From positions 1 to 56,680 of IMG/VR virus record IMGVR_UViG_3300022930_000002: a DNA stretch of 56,680 bases, one strand, 5' to 3'. Below the pieces are notes generated by a model. The model saw only the letters and a list, made by a program, of their open reading frames with translations, had not been told where the DNA came from and did no database searches. Origin of the DNA: a virus. Shown one piece after another: positions 673 through 38,691 of this stretch. The position numbers were made by a program, and so were the translations under genes. Numbering within the stretch: the stretch's first letter is position 1; every line of letters starts with the position of its first letter.

Positions 673-978
673 CTATACTAAACAAGCTATTCTGGATAAT
701 AATTGCTTCGTACCGTCAGACTGAAAAGGAGTGGACAAAGATACAACTATCTTTTTTTCTTCTATAGATCGCAGACAAACCTTACAATTCATTGCTTTGC
801 CAACTTCATATTTTATTACACAATCCAATATATCATTCACCTGCGGTAGTTCTCCGGAGGCATAATAATTTTTGGCTACAAATACCGTTTGTCGTTTCAC
901 ATCTCCTTTAAAATCCATATCGACATGGTTTGAACATACGAAACTATCTGAAGAAAGAAGGAATATACCGGTGATCAT
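673..978 (-). CDS. hypothetical protein with signal/lipoprotein-like N-terminus (moron-like)
   Basis: MITGIFLLSSDSFVC hydrophobic leader ending in Cys; ORF track. Confidence 0.55.
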   Translation of the reverse strand: MITGIFLLSSDSFVCSNHVDMDFKGDVKRQTVFVAKNYYASGELPQVNDILDCVIKYEVGKAMNCKVCLRSIEEKKIVVSLSTPFQSDGTKQLLSRIACLV

Positions 979-1002
979 AAAAATAAAAGTATAAAAATAA
1001 TT

Positions 1003-1033
1003 TTGTTTTTTAAAATAAGAGTTTGTATGTTTG
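1003..1033 (+). promoter_or_regulatory. Bacteroidota-type promoter (TTG-N20-TATGTTTG) ahead of leader ORF and tRNA cluster
   Basis: TTG at 1003-1005 and TATGTTTG at 1026-1033 match the -33 TTG / -7 TAnnTTTG consensus. Confidence 0.55.
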
Positions 1034-1058
1034 TGGTCCCGAACAACGGGTAATTATT

Positions 1059-1127
1059 ATGAAAAATTTAAACCTACATCGCCAACCGCAACTTCTTGAT
1101 TATAGTCGAGGTGGTACTGGTATGTAA
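1059..1127 (+). CDS. 22-codon leader-like ORF MKNLNLHRQPQLLDYSRGGTGM with 8 consecutive CNN codons
   Basis: Hand translation: ATG AAA AAT TTA AAC CTA CAT CGC CAA CCG CAA CTT CTT GAT TAT AGT CGA GGT GGT ACT GGT ATG TAA. Confidence 0.45.
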   Translation: MKNLNLHRQPQLLDYSRGGTGM

Positions 1128-1150
1128 AATTAAAATACAAAATACTTGAA

Positions 1151-1183
1151 CCCGCTTAGACTAAAAATCTAAGCGGGTTTTTT
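1151..1183 (+). terminator. intrinsic terminator between leader ORF and tRNA cluster
   Basis: CCCGCTTAG-N9-CTAAGCGGG hairpin followed by TTTTTT. Confidence 0.7.
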
Positions 1184-1190
1184 GTTATAT

Positions 1191-1265
1191 CGGGTTGCGA
1201 TCCATGTGGTGTGGTTACCCGCCTTGGAAGCGGGATTATTGCAGGTTCAACTCCTGTCAGCCCGA
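1191..1265 (+). tRNA. tRNA-Pro (anticodon UGG)
   Basis: Hand-folded cloverleaf. Acceptor CGGGTTG/CAGCCCG, anticodon stem CCCGC/GCGGG, loop CTTGGAA, T arm GCAGG-TTCAACT-CCTGT. A37; C at position 8 is atypical. Confidence 0.7.
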
Positions 1266-1331
1266 CGAGATAGAGACTGTTACCAATTCATAGGAGTGAA
1301 TGCGCTACGAAGCTTAGAATTGGATTTATAT

Positions 1332-1404
1332 TTTAGAGTAGTGTAGTTGGTTAACACATCAGATTTTGACTCTGATAGCGCAAGTTCGATCCTTGTCTCT
1401 AAAA
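1332..1404 (+). tRNA. tRNA-Gln (anticodon UUG)
   Basis: Acceptor TTTAGAG/CTCTAAA, D stem GTGT/ACAC, anticodon stem TCAGA/TCTGA, loop TTTTGAC, T loop TTCGATC. Confidence 0.8.
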
Positions 1405-1405
1405 C

Positions 1406-1478
1406 GGTGATTCTGTCCGTAATGTAACGGAGTCGGTCTGTGAAACCGATTATGAGGGTTCAAGTCCCTCGTTTCACA
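1406..1478 (+). tRNA. tRNA-His (anticodon GUG) with extra 5' G(-1)
   Basis: D stem TCCG/CGGA, anticodon stem TCGGT/ACCGA, loop CTGTGAA, T arm GAGGG-TTCAAGT-CCCTC. Acceptor GTGATTC/GTTTCAC has two U-U mismatches. Confidence 0.6.
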
Positions 1479-1483
1479 CTAAT

Positions 1484-1555
1484 ATTTCTGTAGGTCAATG
1501 GATAGACTGCGGGGCTACGAACCTCGATATGAGGGTTCGAATCCTTCCAGAAATA
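1484..1555 (+). tRNA. tRNA-Arg (anticodon ACG)
   Basis: Acceptor ATTTCTG/CAGAAAT, anticodon stem CGGGG/CCTCG, loop CTACGAA, T loop TTCGAAT. Confidence 0.8.
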
Positions 1556-1561
1556 CAAAAT

Positions 1562-1635
1562 GCCGGAGTGATGCAACTGGGAGACATTTCTGTCTTAGAA
1601 ACAGAATTTTGTGAGTTCGAATCTCACCTCCGGTA
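1562..1635 (+). tRNA. tRNA with anticodon UAG (CUN decoder, Leu-like) but short 5-nt variable loop
   Basis: Acceptor GCCGGAG/CTCCGGT, anticodon stem TCTGT/ACAGA, loop CTTAGAA, variable ATTTT, T arm GTGAG-TTCGAAT-CTCAC, A73. 74 nt in total. Confidence 0.65.
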
Positions 1636-1636
1636 C

Positions 1637-2056
1637 TTATTTATTAAAATCATTTGAAACCTTTTGGAGTTCTTCTTCAATATTAGGAATCAAAGAAGCC
1701 TGGTGTTTAAATAAAGCAGGAAACAAAAAGGGTCTGGGACCGGTATGCCCTTTTCCATTGACAAAAAATTCCCTCGTGTATGCTTCGTATCCTGGAGGAG
1801 CCTGCGTTAACGGTCCAGTTCCAAACTCCTGATATGGGGCATATTTTGCACTGGCAAACACATACGTTACTCCTGGCTTCTGCTCAGTGCCGATTGATCC
1901 GGCAAGTAATCCTTGATCTCGCGGTACATTTGCTTTGGCATCGGCTTCAATCAATTTAGCTGTCTTAAGGATACCGCGATCTACAGCAGCTTCACTATGT
2001 TTACGCAAATCCTTAAGTGCTCTTTTCACTTGATTGAGTCCTTTAATCTTAGCCAT
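1637..2056 (-). CDS. HK97 gp10-like neck/tail component
   Basis: MAKIKGL..VKRALKDL start and KYAPYQEFGTG motif typical of the HK97 gp10 family; position after head-closure gene. Confidence 0.75.
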   Translation of the reverse strand: MAKIKGLNQVKRALKDLRKHSEAAVDRGILKTAKLIEADAKANVPRDQGLLAGSIGTEQKPGVTYVFASAKYAPYQEFGTGPLTQAPPGYEAYTREFFVNGKGHTGPRPFLFPALFKHQASLIPNIEEELQKVSNDFNK

Positions 2057-3277: not shown

Positions 3278-4567
3278 CTATGAAGTACCGTTCAAGTCAA
3301 ACTTAACAAAGCTTTCAGGGAAGAAGCAAGCAAGTGCTACTCGCGCCTCGATGAGCAAAGTTGTAAGATTATAGGTAAAATTTTTGTCATGTTCGTTCGA
3401 AGTACGAATTGTCATCGCTTTCTTCTGGAACAAACGTGCCCCCCTACGGAAATCACCAGTGATACCTTCGCCTGGGTAGAAGATAGAGTGTTGGTAGATT
3501 GGCACCCCACCTAGCAATAACGTTCCACCAACGGTAGAAGTGATTGGGTAAGTGTACTCCAAAGTTGTACCTTTGTTGATCAATAACTCCATATAATCTT
3601 CAGGAGATACGAAAATCGCATCGGTTGCACGAAGATTTCTACGCACCTGGCATAGACCGGCTGCCAATTTATCCCAGTTGTTTGAGATATCAGTTACCGA
3701 ACCTTTTGGAAGCATCAAGTCACGTGCCCATACAGACATTAAACCTGACAACTCATCCGGAGTTGCAGCAGCTCCTAAACCTTTGAATACCTGACGAGTT
3801 TCCTCATCCATGTATGCTTTAGGCAATTCTTCAGCTAAGAAGTCACGAGCACCTACAACATCCTCTAAAAATTCGTCCTGAACTGTTAACCAACCTGCGA
3901 TTTTAATAACTGGTGCCGATACTGGCTCAGAGTTATAATCGATTTGTGGTTTCTCAGTTCCCGCATCTACTGATCCGATTGAACCTTCTTTTTTTGTGAA
4001 CTGCACATACTTGATCATGTCTGAAGAAGTAGGACTTACAGGGATGATATTACGGGCTTGAACTACCTCATGCTCGATTCCTACTGGAGAAACAAATTGA
4101 GGGTTAACTGTGCCTGCTGTAACACCCATAACGCCAACAGCTTTTACGTTAACATTCGCTAGTTCTGCTTTGAAGGTAGCTTTATTCTGAGTAAAGTTTT
4201 CCAACATAGTTTCACCTTCTTTTGTAGAGAAGAAGTCAAAGATTTCACCTTGCAACGTTTTAAGGGTCGCGCCAGTTTCATTTGCTTTAATCCTTTTCAT
4301 CTCAGCCAAAGCTTCTTCTACTTGCTCGTCGCGAGTTTTCAATTGAAGTTCAAAAGCAGCCTTTTGAGCATCCAAAAGTTTCTGAAATTCTTCAGCGGTT
4401 TCTTTTTTTGCAGCTTCTACCGCTTTAGCAGCAGCTTTTTCACCTGCTTCAGCCCCGATACGCTCGGCTTCTGATTTTTCAAAGTCTCTTTTTTTATCAA
4501 GATACTTTTCTTGTTCGTAATCACTCATTGCTGCAACCTCAGCAGGAGATTTATAAGTAAATGTCAT
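3278..4567 (-). CDS. major capsid protein, HK97 fold, with N-terminal coiled-coil delta domain
   Basis: 429 aa; Glu/Lys/Ala-rich helical first ~100 aa; directly downstream of the prohead protease. Confidence 0.85.
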   Translation of the reverse strand: MTFTYKSPAEVAAMSDYEQEKYLDKKRDFEKSEAERIGAEAGEKAAAKAVEAAKKETAEEFQKLLDAQKAAFELQLKTRDEQVEEALAEMKRIKANETGATLKTLQGEIFDFFSTKEGETMLENFTQNKATFKAELANVNVKAVGVMGVTAGTVNPQFVSPVGIEHEVVQARNIIPVSPTSSDMIKYVQFTKKEGSIGSVDAGTEKPQIDYNSEPVSAPVIKIAGWLTVQDEFLEDVVGARDFLAEELPKAYMDEETRQVFKGLGAAATPDELSGLMSVWARDLMLPKGSVTDISNNWDKLAAGLCQVRRNLRATDAIFVSPEDYMELLINKGTTLEYTYPITSTVGGTLLLGGVPIYQHSIFYPGEGITGDFRRGARLFQKKAMTIRTSNEHDKNFTYNLTTLLIEARVALACFFPESFVKFDLNGTS

Positions 4568-4573
4568 AATGTT

Positions 4574-5428
4574 TTACATTAAGTGGTTAATTATTAAACT
4601 TTTCTTTTTAGCTAAACTGTCTGCTGACGGGTCTTGCGTTTGGGTTATTACTTGACTGCCTTTTAGCGGGTCATTTTTATCTTCTACACTTGTTAATACA
4701 GGTGTTACATCATTTGATCCATAAAGAACCGCAGAACCTTCTTTCCAGATGGCTGCTTCAAGTACTGCCCAGAAATATCCGGCTTCCTCAGCATCTTCTT
4801 TATTAGCTACATTGCTGTAATACTGTAACCAGTTTGAGTATTCTTCTTTATAATATGGTGATTGATCGTTTATACAAAGTTTCATGCGGATATATCTCAT
4901 CCGGATAGAATTTTGTAAAGCTCTCTTAGCCATAATAGCTTTAATCGCTTCGGCATTACCATCTTCAGTTAATTTAACTTTAAATATTAATGCCTGAGTA
5001 GTTCCAGTATAATCACGACCTAATTCTGTCCAGTTCATGGTTTTAACCATTGGCTCAACATCTTCAGGATAAGCAATTACTTTCCCAATCTCCAAATCAT
5101 GATTTATAATATAATAAATCTTATTTTTCTGATCACTCACTGACACATTCCATATGTCATCGATATGCACATCTCCGTGACTGTCTAAGTAATTTGTAGT
5201 ATTAATAACGGGAAACACGTAATCCCCCATTTTAATTTCTACCTCACTTGTATCACCTTCAGCTTTTTCAGTGTTAGACTTAACGGCCATAACACGCATA
5301 TCTAACCAATCTGTAAATTTAATTACACTCTTTTTGCTGTCAATAATAAGGTTCTTGTTAGCCTTCAATGCTTTATACATTTCAGACTTGTTACGGAAAT
5401 CCTTTTTTAAATCTTTGCAGAAGATCAT
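4574..5428 (-). CDS. prohead serine protease (HK97 / S78 type)
   Basis: LDSHGDVH and INHD motifs; gene order protease then capsid. Confidence 0.75.
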   Translation of the reverse strand: MIFCKDLKKDFRNKSEMYKALKANKNLIIDSKKSVIKFTDWLDMRVMAVKSNTEKAEGDTSEVEIKMGDYVFPVINTTNYLDSHGDVHIDDIWNVSVSDQKNKIYYIINHDLEIGKVIAYPEDVEPMVKTMNWTELGRDYTGTTQALIFKVKLTEDGNAEAIKAIMAKRALQNSIRMRYIRMKLCINDQSPYYKEEYSNWLQYYSNVANKEDAEEAGYFWAVLEAAIWKEGSAVLYGSNDVTPVLTSVEDKNDPLKGSQVITQTQDPSADSLAKKKSLIINHLM

Positions 5429-5800: not shown

Positions 5801-6039
5801 TGGGAATGTTTGATACAGTGATTTTTAAATGTAAAAATGAAGATTGTACCGGAATATTACAGGCTCAATCTAAATCAGGTAAATGTGATCTTTATACTTT
5901 TAATAGAAAAGAAGTTCCATTAGCTGTTTCTGCCGATCTTATTGATAGTTGTATTACTTGCTCGGCTTGCAATACTAAATATTTCATAAGAAGTAAAGTA
6001 CAAACTGTAGAACTTAAACTAGTAAGATATGCAGAGTAG
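5800..6039 (+). CDS. small zinc-ribbon protein
   Basis: CKNEDC ... CSAC cysteine pairs; coupled to flanking genes. Confidence 0.6.
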   Translation: MGMFDTVIFKCKNEDCTGILQAQSKSGKCDLYTFNRKEVPLAVSADLIDSCITCSACNTKYFIRSKVQTVELKLVRYAE

Positions 6040-7384
6040 AATTAAAATTGCAATTACTACTCATAACAGATATGAAGTATTTAAAAAATCCTTTGAGATG
6101 TGGAATAAGTTTCTACCCAAAGGAGCTGAGATCATCGTAGTTGACGATGGGTCTAGCGAACCAGTTGCCGAAGCTAATTTCAGATTTGCTGAAGCTCAGG
6201 GGATATCTGTAGCTAAGAATAAATGTTTTGAATTAATGGGTGAAGCAGATTTCTATTTTTTAGTAGATGATGATGTTTACCCAATTACTAAAAACTGGTT
6301 TAAGCCATATGTAGAATCTGGAATAAATCATTTATGCCTGGGTTTCGATACTTTTTCAAATGGCAATAAAAACGGCCATACTTTAGTCAAGTCTGATAAG
6401 CATTTCAATTACTGGAAAGAGCCTTGCGGTCTGATGATGATGTTCACGCCAATTTGCCTGGAAAAGGCCGGAGGGATGGATACTAGATATAAATTGTGGG
6501 GTGGTGAACACCAACAACTGAGTCAACGAATACACAATCTAGGTTTAACACCATATCCCTTTATGGATGTTAAAGAAGGCCTTAAAATGTTTTATTGCTA
6601 TGATCAGGATCAATCATCTCCCAGAAGTGTTGATGCCAATACAAGACGTAGGGCATGGTCTCAAAACAGACAACTTTTAATCAGAGATGTAACCAGTCAA
6701 TCTTATATTCCTTTTAAACCTCTGGAAGATGTTTACATTACAACTCTTTTTAATCACATCGTGGACCCGCAGCGAGGGGAAAAGTGGAATGCTGATGAAA
6801 GTGTTTTAGATGCCTTGGTCAACTCTTTAAAAGGAAAACCATTAATTGTCTTAACTGATTCTTTCGAAGGTAGTGATGGGAATACAACCTACATTACAGT
6901 AAAAACTACCTGCAACAATCCATATTGGCAAAGATGGCTTTCAATCAAAGAACATTTGGAATCTCATCGTTACAATAAAGTTTTTATCTGCGATGGCGCA
7001 GACGTAGTTTTAATGCGTGATCCTTTTCCACATCTACAGCCTGGTAAATTATATCTGGGTGATGAACAATCCCAGATCATAAGAAACCAGTGGATAATGC
7101 GTAATCATCCTGCTCAGGTCTACCAAAAAATGTATAGTATCGGTGCCACGTGGAGATTATTAAACGCAGGCTTATGTGGGGGGTATCAAGACATCGTTTT
7201 ACGTTTTGTAACTCTTATGGCTGCTCACTACACAGAGCATGGTAAAAACGACTACACAGATATGGCCGGCTTTAATTTCATTGCCTATCTTCATTTTAAA
7301 AATTCAATAGTAAACGGTAAACAAGTTAATAACGCTTTTAAATCTTACAAGGATAATGGTGTATGTTGGTTTTTACATAAGTAA
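6029..7384 (+). CDS. two-domain glycosyltransferase (N-terminal GT2-like GT-A fold)
   Basis: IAITTHNR..IIVVDDGSSEP..FLVDDDV motifs. The C-terminal half has a second nucleotide-sugar-transferase-like segment (FICDGADV). Confidence 0.7.
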   Translation: MQSRIKIAITTHNRYEVFKKSFEMWNKFLPKGAEIIVVDDGSSEPVAEANFRFAEAQGISVAKNKCFELMGEADFYFLVDDDVYPITKNWFKPYVESGINHLCLGFDTFSNGNKNGHTLVKSDKHFNYWKEPCGLMMMFTPICLEKAGGMDTRYKLWGGEHQQLSQRIHNLGLTPYPFMDVKEGLKMFYCYDQDQSSPRSVDANTRRRAWSQNRQLLIRDVTSQSYIPFKPLEDVYITTLFNHIVDPQRGEKWNADESVLDALVNSLKGKPLIVLTDSFEGSDGNTTYITVKTTCNNPYWQRWLSIKEHLESHRYNKVFICDGADVVLMRDPFPHLQPGKLYLGDEQSQIIRNQWIMRNHPAQVYQKMYSIGATWRLLNAGLCGGYQDIVLRFVTLMAAHYTEHGKNDYTDMAGFNFIAYLHFKNSIVNGKQVNNAFKSYKDNGVCWFLHK

Positions 7385-38259: not shown

Positions 38260-38333
38260 TGCGAGGTACATCAGTTGGCTAGATGGTCCGGCTCATATCC
38301 GGAATGGCGAGAGTTCGAGTCTCTCCCTCGCAA
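38260..38333 (+). tRNA. tRNA with anticodon CAU (elongator Met or Ile2)
   Basis: Acceptor TGCGAGG/CCTCGCA, D stem CATC/GATG, anticodon stem TCCGG/CCGGA, loop CTCATAT, T arm GAGAG-TTCGAGT-CTCTC. Confidence 0.8.
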
Positions 38334-38401
38334 CGAACAAGTGCATTGACATTTTAGTGAAGTTAGTTCGGACGAGGGTTCGACTCCCTCCACCTCCACC
38401 A
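38334..38401 (+). ncRNA. ssrA: tmRNA-like acceptor piece (3' half of a tRNA-Ala-like domain, encoded CCA)
   Basis: GGAC-GAGGG-TTCGACT-CCCTC-CACCTCC-A-CCA; its 5' end ACAAGTGCA is complementary to the 3' end of the coding piece. Confidence 0.6.
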
Positions 38402-38468
38402 ATGTTAAGGGTAGTTACTTAACGCTAAAGAAAAGGATTGATTGATGATCGCCTTTTCTAAACCTAAT

Positions 38469-38610
38469 GGGGGTGCCTGGTTTTGACGTATTAATAAGTA
38501 GGTAAAGTAGAGTGTTTGTTTAAATTCAACTGGCAAAGTTGTAAAAATGTTCAGTCCATCGCTAAGAGCGGTAGCCTAAACAGTCCGCAGGGAACTAAAT
38601 CCCTGCACTT
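38469..38610 (+). ncRNA. ssrA: tmRNA-like coding piece (5' acceptor strand GGGGGTG, D-loop analogue CCTGGTTTTGAC, candidate tag frame ending AVA-TAA, 3' hairpin)
   Basis: GGGGGTG pairs with CACCTCC (38391-38397), giving G3:U70. An open frame at 38511-38576 stops at TAA 38577. Hairpin GCAGGGA-ACTAAA-TCCCTGC. Confidence 0.55.
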
Positions 38611-38683
38611 GTATCCTTAGCTCAGTTGGTAGAGCAGCGCACTCATACTGCGTAGGTCGTCTGTTCGAGTCAGGCAGGGTACA
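38611..38683 (+). tRNA. second tRNA with anticodon CAU (Met or Ile2)
   Basis: Acceptor GTATCCT/AGGGTAC, D arm GCTC-AGTTGGTA-GAGC, anticodon stem GCGCA/TGCGT, loop CTCATAC, T loop TTCGAGT. Confidence 0.85.
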
Positions 38684-38691
38684 CAATTAAT

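What the first reader, a model, noticed from the sequence alone, without database searches (positions are those of the whole stretch)
1003..1635. tRNA cluster that decodes exactly the CNN codon row, preceded by a CNN-run leader ORF and a terminator
The five tRNAs have anticodons UGG, UUG, GUG, ACG and UAG. All carry G36, so together they read Pro CCN, Gln CAR, His CAY, Arg CGN and Leu CUN, which is the whole C-first row and nothing else. Upstream lies a promoter-like TTG-N20-TATGTTTG, then a 22-codon ORF. Codons 6-13 of that ORF are CTA CAT CGC CAA CCG CAA CTT CTT, with a further CGA later. These are eight consecutive CNN codons spelling exactly those five amino acids (LHRQPQLL). A strong hairpin plus T6 terminator (1151-1183) then sits 8 nt before the first tRNA. 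Such a codon run seems very unlikely by chance in this visibly AT-rich genome (not quantified). The layout resembles leader-peptide attenuation, here apparently sensing the decoding capacity that the downstream genes supply. All five tRNAs have A37, whereas bacterial tRNA-Pro and tRNA-Leu(CUN) normally carry G37 (m1G37, TrmD). Caveat: I could not find a convincing antiterminator helix by eye, and the stop codon lies 23 nt before the hairpin.
Basis: partly seen in the sequence, partly recalled or inferred. Interest (0 to 1): 0.85.

Follow-up and report, generated by a model that had tools for sequence, protein, structure and literature searches.

The report
Leader-peptide attenuator controlling phage tRNA genes
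A phage tRNA gene cluster is preceded by a tiny "checklist" gene whose codons are exactly those read by the tRNAs downstream, followed by a transcription stop signal, so the phage most likely makes these tRNAs only when the cell runs short of them; the design recurs in at least 16 units from 10 flavobacterial-type phages and I found no published description of it.

Summary
It comprises five tRNAs (Pro-UGG, Gln-UUG, His-GUG, Arg-ACG, Leu-UAG), a Bacteroidota-type promoter, a 22-codon ORF with eight consecutive CNN codons, and a strong terminator 7 nt before tRNA-Pro.

The interpretation, leader-peptide attenuation that senses the decoding capacity the operon supplies, is strongly supported by comparison. 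I found the same layout (promoter, short ORF, terminator, tRNA block) in 16 units. They come from Cellulophaga phages phi19:1 and phi38:1/Calle, Maribacter phage Panino, and six metagenomic or IMG/VR contigs.

- **Codon match:** each leader lists the codons of its own block; 90 of 91 tRNAs are represented.
- **Covariation:** Glu codons appear only where tRNA-Glu is present. CUN codons vanish where tRNA-Leu(UAG) has moved to another block. Arg is CGH before tRNA-Arg(ACG) and AGA before tRNA-Arg(UCU).
- **Antiterminator:** Bases 1103-1114 pair with 1152-1163. An equivalent helix beats shuffled controls in 15/15 units (combined p = 2e-15).

Nothing here was tested experimentally. The mechanism class is textbook; tRNA genes as the target, multi-amino-acid checklist leaders and the phage setting appear new.

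The parts
1002..1033 (+). Bacteroidota-type promoter: -33 TTTG (1002-1005), 20-nt spacer, -7 box TATGTTTG (1026-1033). The predicted transcription start is about 1039-1042 (inferred).
   Evidence: Read from the sequence. Only 5 TTTG-N17-21-TAnnTTTG composites lie on the + strand of the window. A TAnnTTTG-type -7 box or a one-base variant (TATATTTG, TATATTTA, TAATTTTG, TATCTTTG, TAACTTTG) was read upstream of most leaders in the relatives, but not checked for every unit. No further TAnnTTTG lies between 1034 and 1200, so the tRNAs have no separate promoter of this type.
1059..1127 (+). Leader ORF: 22 codons plus TAA, MKNLNLHRQPQLLDYSRGGTGM*.
   Evidence: It starts ATG AAA, as most leaders of the family do. 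Nine of 21 codons are cognate to the five downstream tRNAs, against a background of 13.8%.
1074..1097 (+). Regulatory run: CTA CAT CGC CAA CCG CAA CTT CTT (L H R Q P Q L L). Every one of the five downstream tRNAs has at least one codon here.
   Evidence: P = 1e-5 for a run of 8 or more cognate codons in simulated leaders.
1075..1089 (+). Region 1: the 5' strand of the 1:2 hairpin. It overlaps the regulatory codons.
   Evidence: It is paired in the minimum-energy and centroid structures of the leader, together with the terminator (z = -4.86, 0 of 200 shuffles fold as well).
1103..1126 (+). Region 2: a G-rich 3' part of the ORF. Bases 1103-1114 (TAGTCGAGGTGG) form the antiterminator strand. Bases 1111-1126 pair with region 1.
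   Evidence: It ends 12 nt before the end of the stop codon, so a ribosome at the stop would cover it.
1152..1163 (+). Region 3: CCGCTTAGACTA, the terminator 5' arm plus part of the loop. It pairs with 1103-1114 to form the antiterminator (11 of 12 positions, two G-U pairs, one mismatch).
   Evidence: -15.0 kcal/mol; 4 of 200 shuffles fold as well. (duplex -13.9 kcal/mol against a shuffle mean of -8.9; the cognate upstream region ranks first of 15 for this arm).
1148..1183 (+). Intrinsic terminator: arms 1148-1160 and 1168-1180, 7-nt loop, T6 run at 1178-1183.
   Evidence: -19.2 kcal/mol. It lies 7 nt upstream of tRNA-Pro.
1191..1266 (+). tRNA-Pro (UGG), anticodon loop CUUGGAA (A37).
   Evidence: About 84% identical to the unannotated tRNA-Pro of Cellulophaga phage phi19:1.
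1332..1405 (+). tRNA-Gln (UUG).
1407..1479 (+). tRNA-His (GUG).
1484..1556 (+). tRNA-Arg (ACG).
1562..1636 (+). tRNA-Leu (UAG), anticodon loop CUUAGAA (A37).

Best explanation
The region is a self-contained, autoregulated tRNA operon controlled by ribosome-mediated (leader-peptide) transcription attenuation.

Proposed steps:
1. Transcription starts at the Bacteroidota-type promoter (1002-1033).
2. A ribosome translates the 22-codon leader (1059-1127) while RNA polymerase approaches the terminator (1148-1183).
3. If charged tRNAs for CUN, CAY, CGH, CAR and CCN codons are plentiful, the ribosome runs to the stop codon. There it covers the G-rich region 2 (1103-1126). The terminator hairpin forms and transcription stops 7 nt before tRNA-Pro.
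4. If any of these decoders is scarce, the ribosome stalls inside the run 1074-1097. Region 2 stays free and pairs with the terminator's 5' arm (1103-1114 with 1152-1163). Polymerase reads on into Pro-Gln-His-Arg-Leu.
5. The new tRNAs relieve the stall, which closes a negative feedback loop.
6. Without any translation, the window's region 1 pairs with region 2 and termination again prevails, as in the trp attenuator.

What is shown and what is inferred:
- Shown by sequence and computation: all the parts, the three alternative helices, and the family-wide matching of leader codons to the tRNAs of the same block.
- Inferred: translation of the ORF, coupling of ribosome and polymerase, the direction of the switch, and the physiological trigger. 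The likely triggers are loss of host tRNAs during infection, for example through tRNA-targeting defence nucleases or host shut-off, or late-infection demand.
For: (1) All parts are present at the stated coordinates.

(2) The same layout occurs in 16 units:
- Cellulophaga phage phi19:1 (one unit).
- Cellulophaga phage phi38:1, identical in Calle_1 (three units).
- Maribacter phage Panino (two units).
- IMG/VR contigs L135 and L131 (one unit each).
- Metagenome contigs L218 (two units), L221, L222 (partial) and L223 (three units).
- Sources.

(3) Codon to tRNA correspondence:
- 90 of 91 tRNAs in 14 complete units have a cognate codon in their own leader.
- Cognate runs of up to 24 codons have simulated P values from 7e-2 down to below 5e-6.
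- The chance of all tRNAs being represented is 0.0007-0.35 per unit.
- In the cross-matrix of the first eight units, class C leaders have 0 of 15 codons cognate to class A or B blocks beyond chance, and the reverse also holds.

(4) Covariation when the tRNA content changes:
- Glu codons occur in the run of the 4 leaders whose block has tRNA-Glu and in none of the 5 whose block lacks it (Fisher p = 0.008, computed by hand).
- In L223 the Leu tRNAs sit in the Ser/Tyr block. That block's leader is rich in Leu, Ser and Tyr, while the Pro-His-Arg-Gln leader has no CUN in its run.
- Arg is CGH in 10 of 12 cases in class C leaders and AGA in 4 of 4 in class A leaders. The phage's own genes use 60% AGR.
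- The order of residues in the run is shuffled between relatives. This argues for a set of codons rather than a functional peptide.

(5) RNA switch:
- With a ribosome masked on the regulatory codons, the minimum-energy fold pairs an upstream G-rich segment with the terminator 5' arm in all 8 units tested. With the ribosome at the stop, the terminator forms.
- For 15 units the pairing beats dinucleotide shuffles every time (each fraction at or below 0.044; Fisher p = 2e-15; mean z = -3.2).
- The cognate segment is the best partner of 15 for 8 terminator arms, although the arm sequences differ widely.
- In most units region 2 ends 1-31 nt before the end of the stop codon.

(6) The window leader folds far better than shuffles (z = -4.86).

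(7) There is no promoter motif between the leader and the tRNAs.
Against: - No experimental evidence of any kind: no transcription start, no terminated RNA, no proof the ORF is translated.
- Each tRNA is represented by only 1-3 codons, whereas classical attenuators use repeated codons to gain sensitivity.
- It is not known whether transcription and translation are coupled tightly enough in Flavobacteriia.
- The window's antiterminator is only modestly better than chance on its own (4 of 200 shuffles; 0.042).
- In several relatives the antiterminator forms even without a ribosome, so the logic with no translation differs between units.
- Some tRNAs counted in phi38:1, L223 and L218 were detected only at a relaxed ARAGORN threshold (Trp, Cys, Ile-UAU, Tyr in L223 and L218) or read by eye (Ala-like, Tyr-like, Leu-UAG-like).
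- Units from related phages are not independent. The combined p-values treat them as if they were, and so overstate significance.
- TTA codons occur near the start of three leaders whose blocks lack tRNA-Leu(UAA) (window, L221, L223 unit 3).
- Lys is the one tRNA with no codon in its own leader (L223 unit 1).
Confidence: 0.8

Rival explanations
1. Coincidence. The CNN run is a chance feature of an untranslated spacer. The hairpin is an ordinary, possibly bidirectional, terminator that insulates the antisense-inserted tRNA cassette from the surrounding late genes.
For: One other CNN run of 8 or more codons exists elsewhere in the window. The finding was made post hoc. The hairpin also scores as terminator-like on the minus strand. 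The tRNA cassette lies antisense between minus-strand connector genes.
Against: The same ORF-terminator-tRNA layout recurs in 16 units, and leader codons track each block's tRNAs. For the window alone, P = 1e-5 for the run and 0.008 for all five tRNAs being represented. A terminator placed between a promoter and its only genes makes no sense unless it is conditional.
Confidence: 0.02
2. The small ORFs encode a family of functional micro-proteins, for example a regulator or toxin, that happens to sit before tRNA blocks. The terminator merely ends that gene, and the tRNAs arise from leaky read-through.
For: GenBank annotates several of them as hypothetical proteins: Panino CDS0063, and phi38:1 gp066 and gp070. 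The C-terminal parts show some similarity, for example GR(D)..YG.D.
Against: - The peptide sequence is not conserved. The residue order in the run is shuffled, and three classes of leaders have unrelated composition.
- Composition follows the tRNA set down to synonymous codons (CGH against AGA; TCN plus AGY; CTN against TTR).
- The conserved 3' part coincides with the RNA segment complementary to each unit's own terminator arm. That explains the similarity at the RNA level.
Confidence: 0.05
3. It is an attenuator, but it reads something broader than the supply of these particular tRNAs. Candidates are amino-acid starvation, overall translation capacity, or infection timing. On this view the match to the block's tRNAs matters only loosely, or the switch works in the opposite sense.
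For: - A ribosome senses charged tRNA. Amino-acid shortage or aminoacyl-tRNA synthetase failure would therefore give the same stall.
- In several relatives the antiterminator is the default fold without a ribosome. Any block of translation initiation would then switch the tRNAs on.
- Single codons per tRNA give low specificity.
Against: Isoacceptor-level codon choice (Arg CGH against AGA) and 90 of 91 tRNAs represented are not needed for a general sensor. The position of region 2 next to the stop codon fits the classical sense of the switch.
Confidence: 0.12

Closest known systems
Leader-peptide transcription attenuators of amino-acid biosynthetic operons (trpL, hisL, leuL, thrL, ilvL, pheL; general mechanism as summarised in PMC1183508)
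   Same: A short leader ORF with regulatory codons sits close to the promoter. An intrinsic terminator lies before the regulated genes. The 1:2, 2:3 and 3:4 helices are mutually exclusive, and region 2 sits next to the stop codon. The readout is ribosome speed at the regulatory codons.
   Different: - The regulated genes are tRNA genes, not biosynthetic enzymes. The product feeds back directly on the sensor.
- The regulatory codons form a checklist of 4-15 different tRNA specificities, mostly one to three codons each, rather than a run of one or two amino acids.
- The element is carried by phages of Bacteroidota-type hosts.
- The sequence does not reach the threshold of any Rfam leader family (Trp_leader 22.8 bits against a gathering score of 41).
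pheST (pheM) leader-peptide attenuator of E. coli phenylalanyl-tRNA synthetase (from my own knowledge, not checked here)
   Same: Leader-peptide attenuation controls a component of the decoding apparatus according to the availability of charged cognate tRNA.
   Different: It controls a synthetase, uses a single amino acid, and is cellular. It does not regulate tRNA genes.
T-box riboswitches
   Same: They couple the state of a specific tRNA to read-through of a terminator upstream of translation-related genes.
   Different: A T-box binds uncharged tRNA directly, with no ORF or ribosome involved. No T-box match was found in the region. T-boxes occur mainly in Firmicutes (from my own knowledge).
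Phage tRNA clusters viewed as codon compensation or as counter-defence against tRNA-targeting nucleases (PMC10264068, PMC11555353)
   Same: Clustered phage tRNA genes. The anticodon loops differ from the bacterial norm, here A37 in Pro and Leu(CUN) tRNAs. The plausible role is to replace host tRNAs that are lost or limiting.
   Different: PMC10264068 contains none of the words leader, attenuat-, terminator or promoter. PMC11555353 was seen only as title and abstract, which describe evasion of defences, not regulation of tRNA expression. Here the tRNA genes appear to be switched on only on demand.

Membership tests
Ribosome-mediated (leader-peptide) transcription attenuator | A short ORF with a start codon lies shortly downstream of a promoter and upstream of the regulated genes. 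| tested here: met
   Promoter at 1002-1033, ORF at 1059-1127. The same arrangement is seen in the 15 other units; L222's leader is cut at the contig end.
Ribosome-mediated (leader-peptide) transcription attenuator | Regulatory codons are cognate to the product of the regulated genes and enriched beyond chance. | tested here: met
   Window: a run of 8 cognate codons (P = 1e-5) and all 5 tRNAs represented (P = 0.008). Family: 90 of 91 tRNAs represented. The cross-matrix of the first eight units is block-specific.
Ribosome-mediated (leader-peptide) transcription attenuator | An intrinsic terminator lies between the leader ORF and the regulated genes. | tested here: met
   Hairpin at 1148-1180 plus T6 run, -19.2 kcal/mol, 7 nt before tRNA-Pro. 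Terminators of -11.8 to -24.4 kcal/mol occur in all the units.
Ribosome-mediated (leader-peptide) transcription attenuator | An alternative antiterminator helix sequesters the 5' arm of the terminator. | tested here: met
   Bases 1103-1114 pair with 1152-1163. The pairing is better than shuffles in 15 of 15 units, Fisher p = 2e-15, and it co-varies with the arm sequence. The window's own significance is modest (0.02-0.04).
Ribosome-mediated (leader-peptide) transcription attenuator | The geometry lets a ribosome at the stop codon block the antiterminator, while a ribosome stalled at the regulatory codons permits it. | tested here: met
   In most units region 2 ends 1-31 nt before the end of the stop codon (12 nt in the window). 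Masking experiments in silico give the expected folds. The footprint sizes are assumed, not measured.
Ribosome-mediated (leader-peptide) transcription attenuator | The leader is translated, and read-through responds to the supply of charged tRNA in vivo. | not testable with these tools
   Needs ribosome profiling, term-seq and reporter assays in a Cellulophaga or Flavobacterium host.
Curated Rfam leader families (Trp_leader RF00513, L10_leader RF00557 and others) | A covariance-model score at or above the gathering threshold. | tested here: not met
   The best scores are 22.8-31.4 bits against thresholds of 41-60, and all span the terminator.
T-box riboswitch | A specifier loop and T-box motif that match the Rfam T-box model. 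| tested here: not met
   No T-box match at E-values up to 5 in 600-2200.

The most novel reading that the evidence does not exclude
Phages of marine Flavobacteriia, and probably other Bacteroidota, split their tRNA arrays into separately autoregulated blocks.

- Each block is headed by a checklist leader peptide that reads out, isoacceptor by isoacceptor, whether the infected cell can still decode the codons that block serves.
- The blocks roughly follow rows of the genetic code. The CNN row is the block present in this window, the UNN row forms a second block, and the ANN and GNN rows form a third.
- The system would act as an on-demand counter-measure to host tRNA depletion, for example by tRNA-cleaving defence nucleases.
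- The tRNAs it releases have non-canonical anticodon loops (A37 instead of the G37 that TrmD methylates in Pro and Leu-CUN tRNAs). These may escape both the nucleases and the dependence on host modification.

This would be the first case of tRNA genes controlled by leader-peptide attenuation. It would also be a natural multi-input sensor of tRNA availability.
Probability: 0.35. Interest if true: 0.95.

Novelty: new variant of a known kind. Interest (0 to 1): 0.88.

Why it matters
- **A new regulatory arrangement.** How and when phage tRNA genes are expressed is largely unknown. They are usually treated as constitutive add-ons for codon compensation or counter-defence. A leader-peptide attenuator in front of tRNA genes would make their product regulate its own synthesis through the ribosome, giving direct homeostasis of decoding capacity. 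To my knowledge, and in seven full-text literature searches, this has not been described for any tRNA operon.
- **Experimentally tractable.** The checklist leaders covary with the tRNA content of each block, which makes a clear and testable rule. Cultured relatives exist for experiments (Cellulophaga phages phi38:1 and phi19:1, Maribacter phage Panino).
- **Better annotation.** The rule helps define tRNA operon boundaries. It points to missed non-canonical tRNAs and to leader ORFs now annotated as hypothetical proteins.
- **Link to phage defence.** It gives a way to test whether phage tRNAs are induced by host tRNA-targeting immunity.
- **A possible tool.** It offers a compact natural part for sensing the availability of specific tRNAs.

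Tried and rejected
- **Rfam scan of 600-2200 at a permissive E-value.** Only sub-threshold hits to unrelated leaders and sRNAs, all driven by the terminator. Not a member of any curated family.
- **Close relatives of the window phage through its flanking genes.**
  - The Neck1-like protein found 61 IMG/VR loci, at most 42% identical. None of the 60 scanned carries a tRNA.
  - ORF 673-978 found nothing.
  - So the flanks gave no direct conservation test of the leader. The tRNA unit looks like an inserted cassette.
- **Megablast of 20 kb of the window against GenBank phages.** No match.
- **Exact or strict DNA patterns in IMG/VR.** The terminator and two tRNA-Pro patterns recovered only phi19:1 itself or nothing. 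The promoter 17-mer and two leader patterns gave mostly chance hits, plus L135, L131, phi38:1 and Calle.
- **Genome collection of 185,579 species.** The phage-type tRNA-Pro is absent. A class C leader signature gave 18 chance hits, none followed by a tRNA block. No cellular copy was detected at this stringency.
- **Decayed tRNA-Glu hypothesis.** I tested whether the 65-nt spacer between tRNA-Pro and tRNA-Gln is a decayed tRNA-Glu. There was no significant similarity to the Glu tRNAs of L218 or Panino, and only a weak 12-point local match to phi38:1's. Rejected.
- **Other Bacteroidota phage tRNA arrays.** An automatic scan found no unit in the crAss-like IAS virus, cr60_1 or Bacteroides phage BI-TP1. 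The design is therefore not universal.
- **The tRNA-Met and tmRNA cluster at 38.2 kb in the window.** It has no leader or terminator unit.
- **RNA-seq data for phi38:1.** The supplementary files of PMC5335546 are not held. The main text mentions only host tRNA genes.
- **Alignment-based pair counting.** The MAFFT alignment of the eight class C leaders is good over the ORF but unreliable over the spacer and terminator. I used per-unit duplex energies with shuffles and a cross-matrix instead.
Full report

ARAGORN finds five + strand tRNA genes: Pro-UGG 1191-1266, Gln-UUG 1332-1405, His-GUG 1407-1479, Arg-ACG 1484-1556 and Leu-UAG 1562-1636. All five reach the Rfam tRNA threshold.

Upstream, the sequence shows the following:
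- TTTG at 1002-1005, 20 nt, then TATGTTTG at 1026-1033. This is the -33/-7 (TAnnTTTG) promoter type of Bacteroidota (the consensus is from my own knowledge).
- An ATG ORF at 1059-1127, MKNLNLHRQPQLLDYSRGGTGM*.
- Codons 6-13 are CTA CAT CGC CAA CCG CAA CTT CTT.
- A 13-bp hairpin at 1148-1180 (-19.2 kcal/mol) running into a T6 tract at 1178-1183, 7 nt before tRNA-Pro.

Chance is an unlikely explanation.
- The window is 37% G+C, and C-first codons are 14% of the codons in its long ORFs.
- Runs of 8 or more CNN codons occur only twice in all six frames.
- In 200,000 random 21-codon leaders drawn from the phage's own codon usage, a cognate run of 8 or more occurred with P = 1e-5. All five tRNAs were represented with P = 0.008.

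A37 in all five tRNAs is confirmed. One nuance: an ACG (inosine) anticodon should not read CGG, so 15 of the 16 CNN codons are covered.

**2. Surroundings.**

The window is a novel tailed phage with HK97-type morphogenesis genes.
- The tRNA unit lies antisense between minus-strand connector genes. The Neck1/tail-completion gene is at 1637-2056. An unassigned ORF is at 673-978. The tail terminator gene is at 237-653.
- The portal protein is only about 27% identical to those of Cellulophaga and Flavobacterium phages. Megablast finds nothing in GenBank phages.
- The Neck1 homologue found 61 IMG/VR loci, and none of the 60 scanned has tRNAs at this position. The unit therefore behaves as an inserted cassette with its own promoter.

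**3. The decisive evidence comes from other phages.**

Weak DNA similarity of the tRNAs led to Cellulophaga phages phi19:1 and phi38:1/phi40:1 and to Maribacter phage Panino. Reading those loci showed the same layout each time: a TAnnTTTG-type promoter, a short ATG ORF, a G+C-rich hairpin with a T-tract, then a tRNA block.

Further scans added:
- two more units in phi38:1 (identical in Calle_1) and a second unit in Panino;
- IMG/VR contig L135;
- metagenome contigs L218 (two units), L221, L222 (leader cut by the contig end) and L223 (three units);
- an independent 33% G+C IMG/VR contig, L131.

That makes 16 units in 10 genomes or contigs.

Leaders and their blocks:

| Unit | Leader peptide | tRNAs downstream |
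|---|---|---|
| window | MKNLNLHRQPQLLDYSRGGTGM | Pro Gln His Arg Leu(UAG) |
| phi19:1 | MNNNTIHIQRLPQPKRFGEFAVYGSDGLIG | Pro Gln His Leu Arg |
| L221 | MKLKALHIQSLRQPTNIGKDKGM | Pro Gln His Leu Arg |
| L222 (partial) | ..HTRQPQPQILFEE | Pro Gln His Leu Arg |
| L223 unit 3 | MKTLRHTQPQRNLDYLRW | Pro His Arg Gln |
| Panino unit 1 | MKTQRLHQELEQPTNIGRDFYGVDGY | Pro Glu Gln His Leu(UAG) Leu(UAA) Arg |
| L135 | MKTKRLHLEQLEQPIIFGRDKYVM | Pro Glu Gln His Leu(UAG) Leu(UAA) Arg |
| L218 unit 1 | MKTRLLHLEQPQSNFGGVSFCDIVEF | Pro Glu Gln His Leu(UAG) Leu(UAA) Arg |
| phi38:1 unit C | MNVTLLHQEPLEQLRLPSRVPYYGIDELS | Pro Glu Gln His Leu(UAG) Leu(UAA) Arg |
| Panino unit 2 | MRAATGIAIIGRTKDKPLGRISVL | Ala Lys Ile Gly (Asp, Thr, Val, Met further on) |
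| phi38:1 unit A | MKTIMNIATDIRTKGVKLLGRSRVL | (Ala-like) Lys Ile Gly Met Asp Thr Val Arg(UCU) Ile(UAU) |
| L223 unit 1 | MRTIINIGTWNCGTEADFVFGATCSGMNDS | Phe Thr Met Ser Ile Asn Asp Gly Cys Met Ala Trp Val Lys Arg(UCU) Glu |
| phi38:1 unit B | MKTNMTYNNFSWYSNCSFSSYNVERLYLS | (Tyr-like) Ser Ser Asn Trp Phe Cys |
| L218 unit 2 | MKLFNYSYSCFNSWLFESGKTGV | Tyr Ser Ser ... (locus ends) |
| L223 unit 2 | MKRVNLYSSYLSLSLTSVEANLLYG | Ser Ser Tyr Leu Leu |
| L131 | MKQNSKHNVTNLPINVGQTWFTIKGQDCRKFRVLNKM | Asn Lys Trp Thr Ile Pro Phe Gly |

**4. Statistics of the correspondence.**

- With standard wobble rules, 90 of 91 tRNAs in the 14 complete units scored (L222 is partial, and L131 was found later) have at least one cognate codon in their own leader. 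The exception is Lys in L223 unit 1.
- Cognate runs reach 8-24 codons in most units, with simulated P from 7e-2 down to below 5e-6.
- In the cross-matrix of the first eight units, class C leaders score 7-12 of 15 codons against class C blocks. They score 0-5 against class A or B blocks. Class A and B leaders score 0 against class C.

Changes in tRNA content are mirrored in the leaders.
- Glu codons sit in the run of the four leaders whose block has tRNA-Glu and in none of the five without it (Fisher p = 0.008, computed by hand).
- In L223 the Leu tRNAs have moved to the Ser/Tyr block. That block's leader is Leu/Ser/Tyr-rich, while the Pro-His-Arg-Gln leader lacks CUN in its run.
- The match holds at the level of synonymous codons. 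Arg is CGH in 10 of 12 cases in class C leaders (tRNA-Arg ACG) and AGA in 4 of 4 cases in class A leaders (tRNA-Arg UCU). The phage's genes use 60% AGR.
- Class B leaders carry both TCN and AGY Ser codons, matching two Ser tRNAs.
- The residue order within the runs is shuffled between relatives. Examples are LHRQPQLL, HIQRLPQP, QRLHQELEQP and RLHLEQLEQP.

What is conserved is therefore a set of codons, not a peptide.

**5. The RNA switch.**

In the window, the full leader folds into a hairpin that pairs the regulatory codons (1075-1089) with 1111-1126, plus the terminator (-38.6 kcal/mol, z = -4.86, 0 of 200 shuffles).

If the first 36 nt of the ORF are masked, as by a stalled ribosome, and the terminator's 3' arm is not yet made, the fold changes. 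The minimum-energy structure then pairs TAGTCGAGGTGG (1103-1114) with CCGCTTAGACTA (1152-1163). With a ribosome placed at the stop codon, region 2 is covered and the terminator forms.

The same three-state behaviour is seen in the relatives. Over 15 units, an upstream segment complementary to the terminator's 5' arm is found every time.
- Each unit is better than dinucleotide shuffles (fractions 0-0.044).
- Fisher's combined p is 2e-15 and the mean z is -3.2.
- In most units the segment ends 1-31 nt before the end of the stop codon.
- The terminator arms differ widely: CCGCTTAGAC, GCTCTCTAG, CCCATTCC, CCCTTCC, GCCCCTTTGG, AACCCTGGACT. Even so, the cognate upstream region is the best partner of all 15 for 8 arms. 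This is covariation between region 2 and the terminator.
- In L131, region 2 (AAGTTCAGGGTT) is almost a copy of the terminator's 3' arm.

**6. Most likely mechanism.**

This is a classical ribosome-mediated attenuator, with the general logic summarised in PMC1183508. Here it is wired to tRNA genes.
- Fast translation of the checklist leads to termination.
- A stall at any hungry codon leads to antitermination, so more of exactly those tRNAs are made.

That gives negative feedback on decoding capacity. The parts and the alternative helices are shown by computation. Translation, coupling, the sense of the switch and the trigger are inferred.

A plausible trigger is depletion of host tRNAs during infection. 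tRNA-cleaving defence systems and phage tRNAs that evade them are documented (PMC10264068, PMC11555353). PMC10264068 contains none of the words attenuat-, leader, terminator or promoter; PMC11555353 was seen only as title and abstract.

**7. Weak points.**
- There are no experimental data.
- Only 1-3 codons are present per tRNA.
- It is unknown whether transcription and translation are coupled in Flavobacteriia.
- The window's own antiterminator has modest significance.
- Several tRNAs in the larger arrays were called only at a relaxed threshold or read by eye.
- The units share ancestry, so the combined p-values overstate independence.

**8. Comparison with what is known, and novelty.**
- The element works like trp, his or thr-type attenuators. 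It meets every sequence-level criterion of that class (see the membership table).
- It is not a member of any curated Rfam leader family or of the T-box family.
- The closest functional analogue I know is the pheST (pheM) attenuator, which controls a synthetase (from memory).
- Seven full-text searches found no description of leader-peptide control of tRNA genes, in phages or in cells. The phi38:1 transcriptome paper does not mention it. The library is incomplete, so prior description cannot be excluded.
- In GenBank the leader ORFs are 'hypothetical proteins' or unannotated. Some tRNAs of these blocks are unannotated or overlapped by spurious CDSs.
- No cellular copy was found in 185,579 species genomes with two patterns.
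- Three gut Bacteroidales phage tRNA arrays lack the unit.

I rate it a new variant of a known kind. The mechanism is textbook. The target, the multi-input checklist leader and the phage context are new.

**9. About the 'CNN row'.**

The row is real for this window, but it is one block of a larger scheme. Pro, Gln, His and Arg(ACG) always travel together. Leu(UAG), Leu(UAA) and Glu join or leave this block. In the larger arrays other blocks hold mostly UNN decoders (Tyr, Ser, Phe, Cys, Trp, plus Asn) or ANN and GNN decoders. Whether this reflects function, for example shared position-37 chemistry, or simply descent of the cassette cannot be decided here.

Noticed in passing
window 38260-38684: A permuted (two-piece) tmRNA gene lies at 38341-38579 (Rfam RF04321, 57 bits against a gathering score of 47). 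It sits between two tRNA-Met(CAU) genes at 38260-38334 and 38611-38684. ARAGORN did not call it. Maribacter phage Panino has the same kind of gene inside its tRNA array (L063 4357-4565). This cluster has no leader or terminator unit.
   Followed up: partly
window 1267-1331: The 65-nt spacer between tRNA-Pro and tRNA-Gln is not a decayed tRNA-Glu. It is closely similar by eye (identity not computed) to the spacer at the same place in metagenome contig L221. It contains a conserved 7-bp inverted repeat, CCAATTC...GAATTGG. It could be a processing hairpin or a small RNA.
   Followed up: partly
window 1191-1636, and all related units: All 9 tRNA-Pro(UGG) and all 8 tRNA-Leu(UAG) genes of the family have A37. 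Bacterial Pro and Leu(CUN) tRNAs normally have G37, which TrmD methylates (from my own knowledge). This phage-type tRNA-Pro anticodon arm is absent from 185,579 species genomes. It may mean independence from TrmD or escape from anticodon nucleases. Neither idea was tested.
   Followed up: partly
window 673-2056: The tRNA cassette is inserted antisense inside the minus-strand connector and tail gene cluster. No Bacteroidota -7 box was found on the minus strand between 950 and 1700. Genes 673-978 and 237-653 must therefore be reached by transcription running antisense through the tRNAs and the hairpin. The hairpin also looks terminator-like on the minus strand.
   Followed up: partly
L066 (KC821614 phi38:1), L063 (PP540027 Panino), L062 (KC821607 phi19:1): Annotation problems in public records.
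- Leader ORFs are annotated as hypothetical proteins with over-long N-termini (phi38:1 gp066 and gp070; Panino CDS0063).
- phi38:1 gp071 is a spurious CDS that overlaps tRNA-Pro and tRNA-Glu.
- tRNA-Pro of phi19:1 is unannotated.
- Several tRNA-like genes in phi38:1 are missed by default tRNA finders (Ala-like about 3409-3495, Tyr-like about 4925-5015, Leu-UAG-like 6540-6623, Trp, Cys, Ile-UAU).
   Followed up: partly
L066, L063, L218, L223: In the larger arrays the attenuator-headed blocks roughly follow the first codon letter. One block holds UNN decoders plus Asn and Ser(AGY). One holds CNN decoders plus Glu and Leu(UUR). One holds ANN and GNN decoders. L223 mixes them differently, and its leaders change accordingly.
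   Followed up: partly
L131 12433-12565: An ORF beginning MLTTQRTSHPQLLVNFG... resembles a class C leader. It runs up to a tRNA-Leu(UAG) without a recognisable terminator, and the contig ends soon after. It may be a degenerate or variant unit.
   Followed up: no
L223 (reverse-complement orientation) 5843-5961: A Glu-rich small ORF (MRTESEHTDTESDE...) runs directly into tRNA-Glu, with no terminator between them. It may be chance or a different kind of coupling.
   Followed up: no
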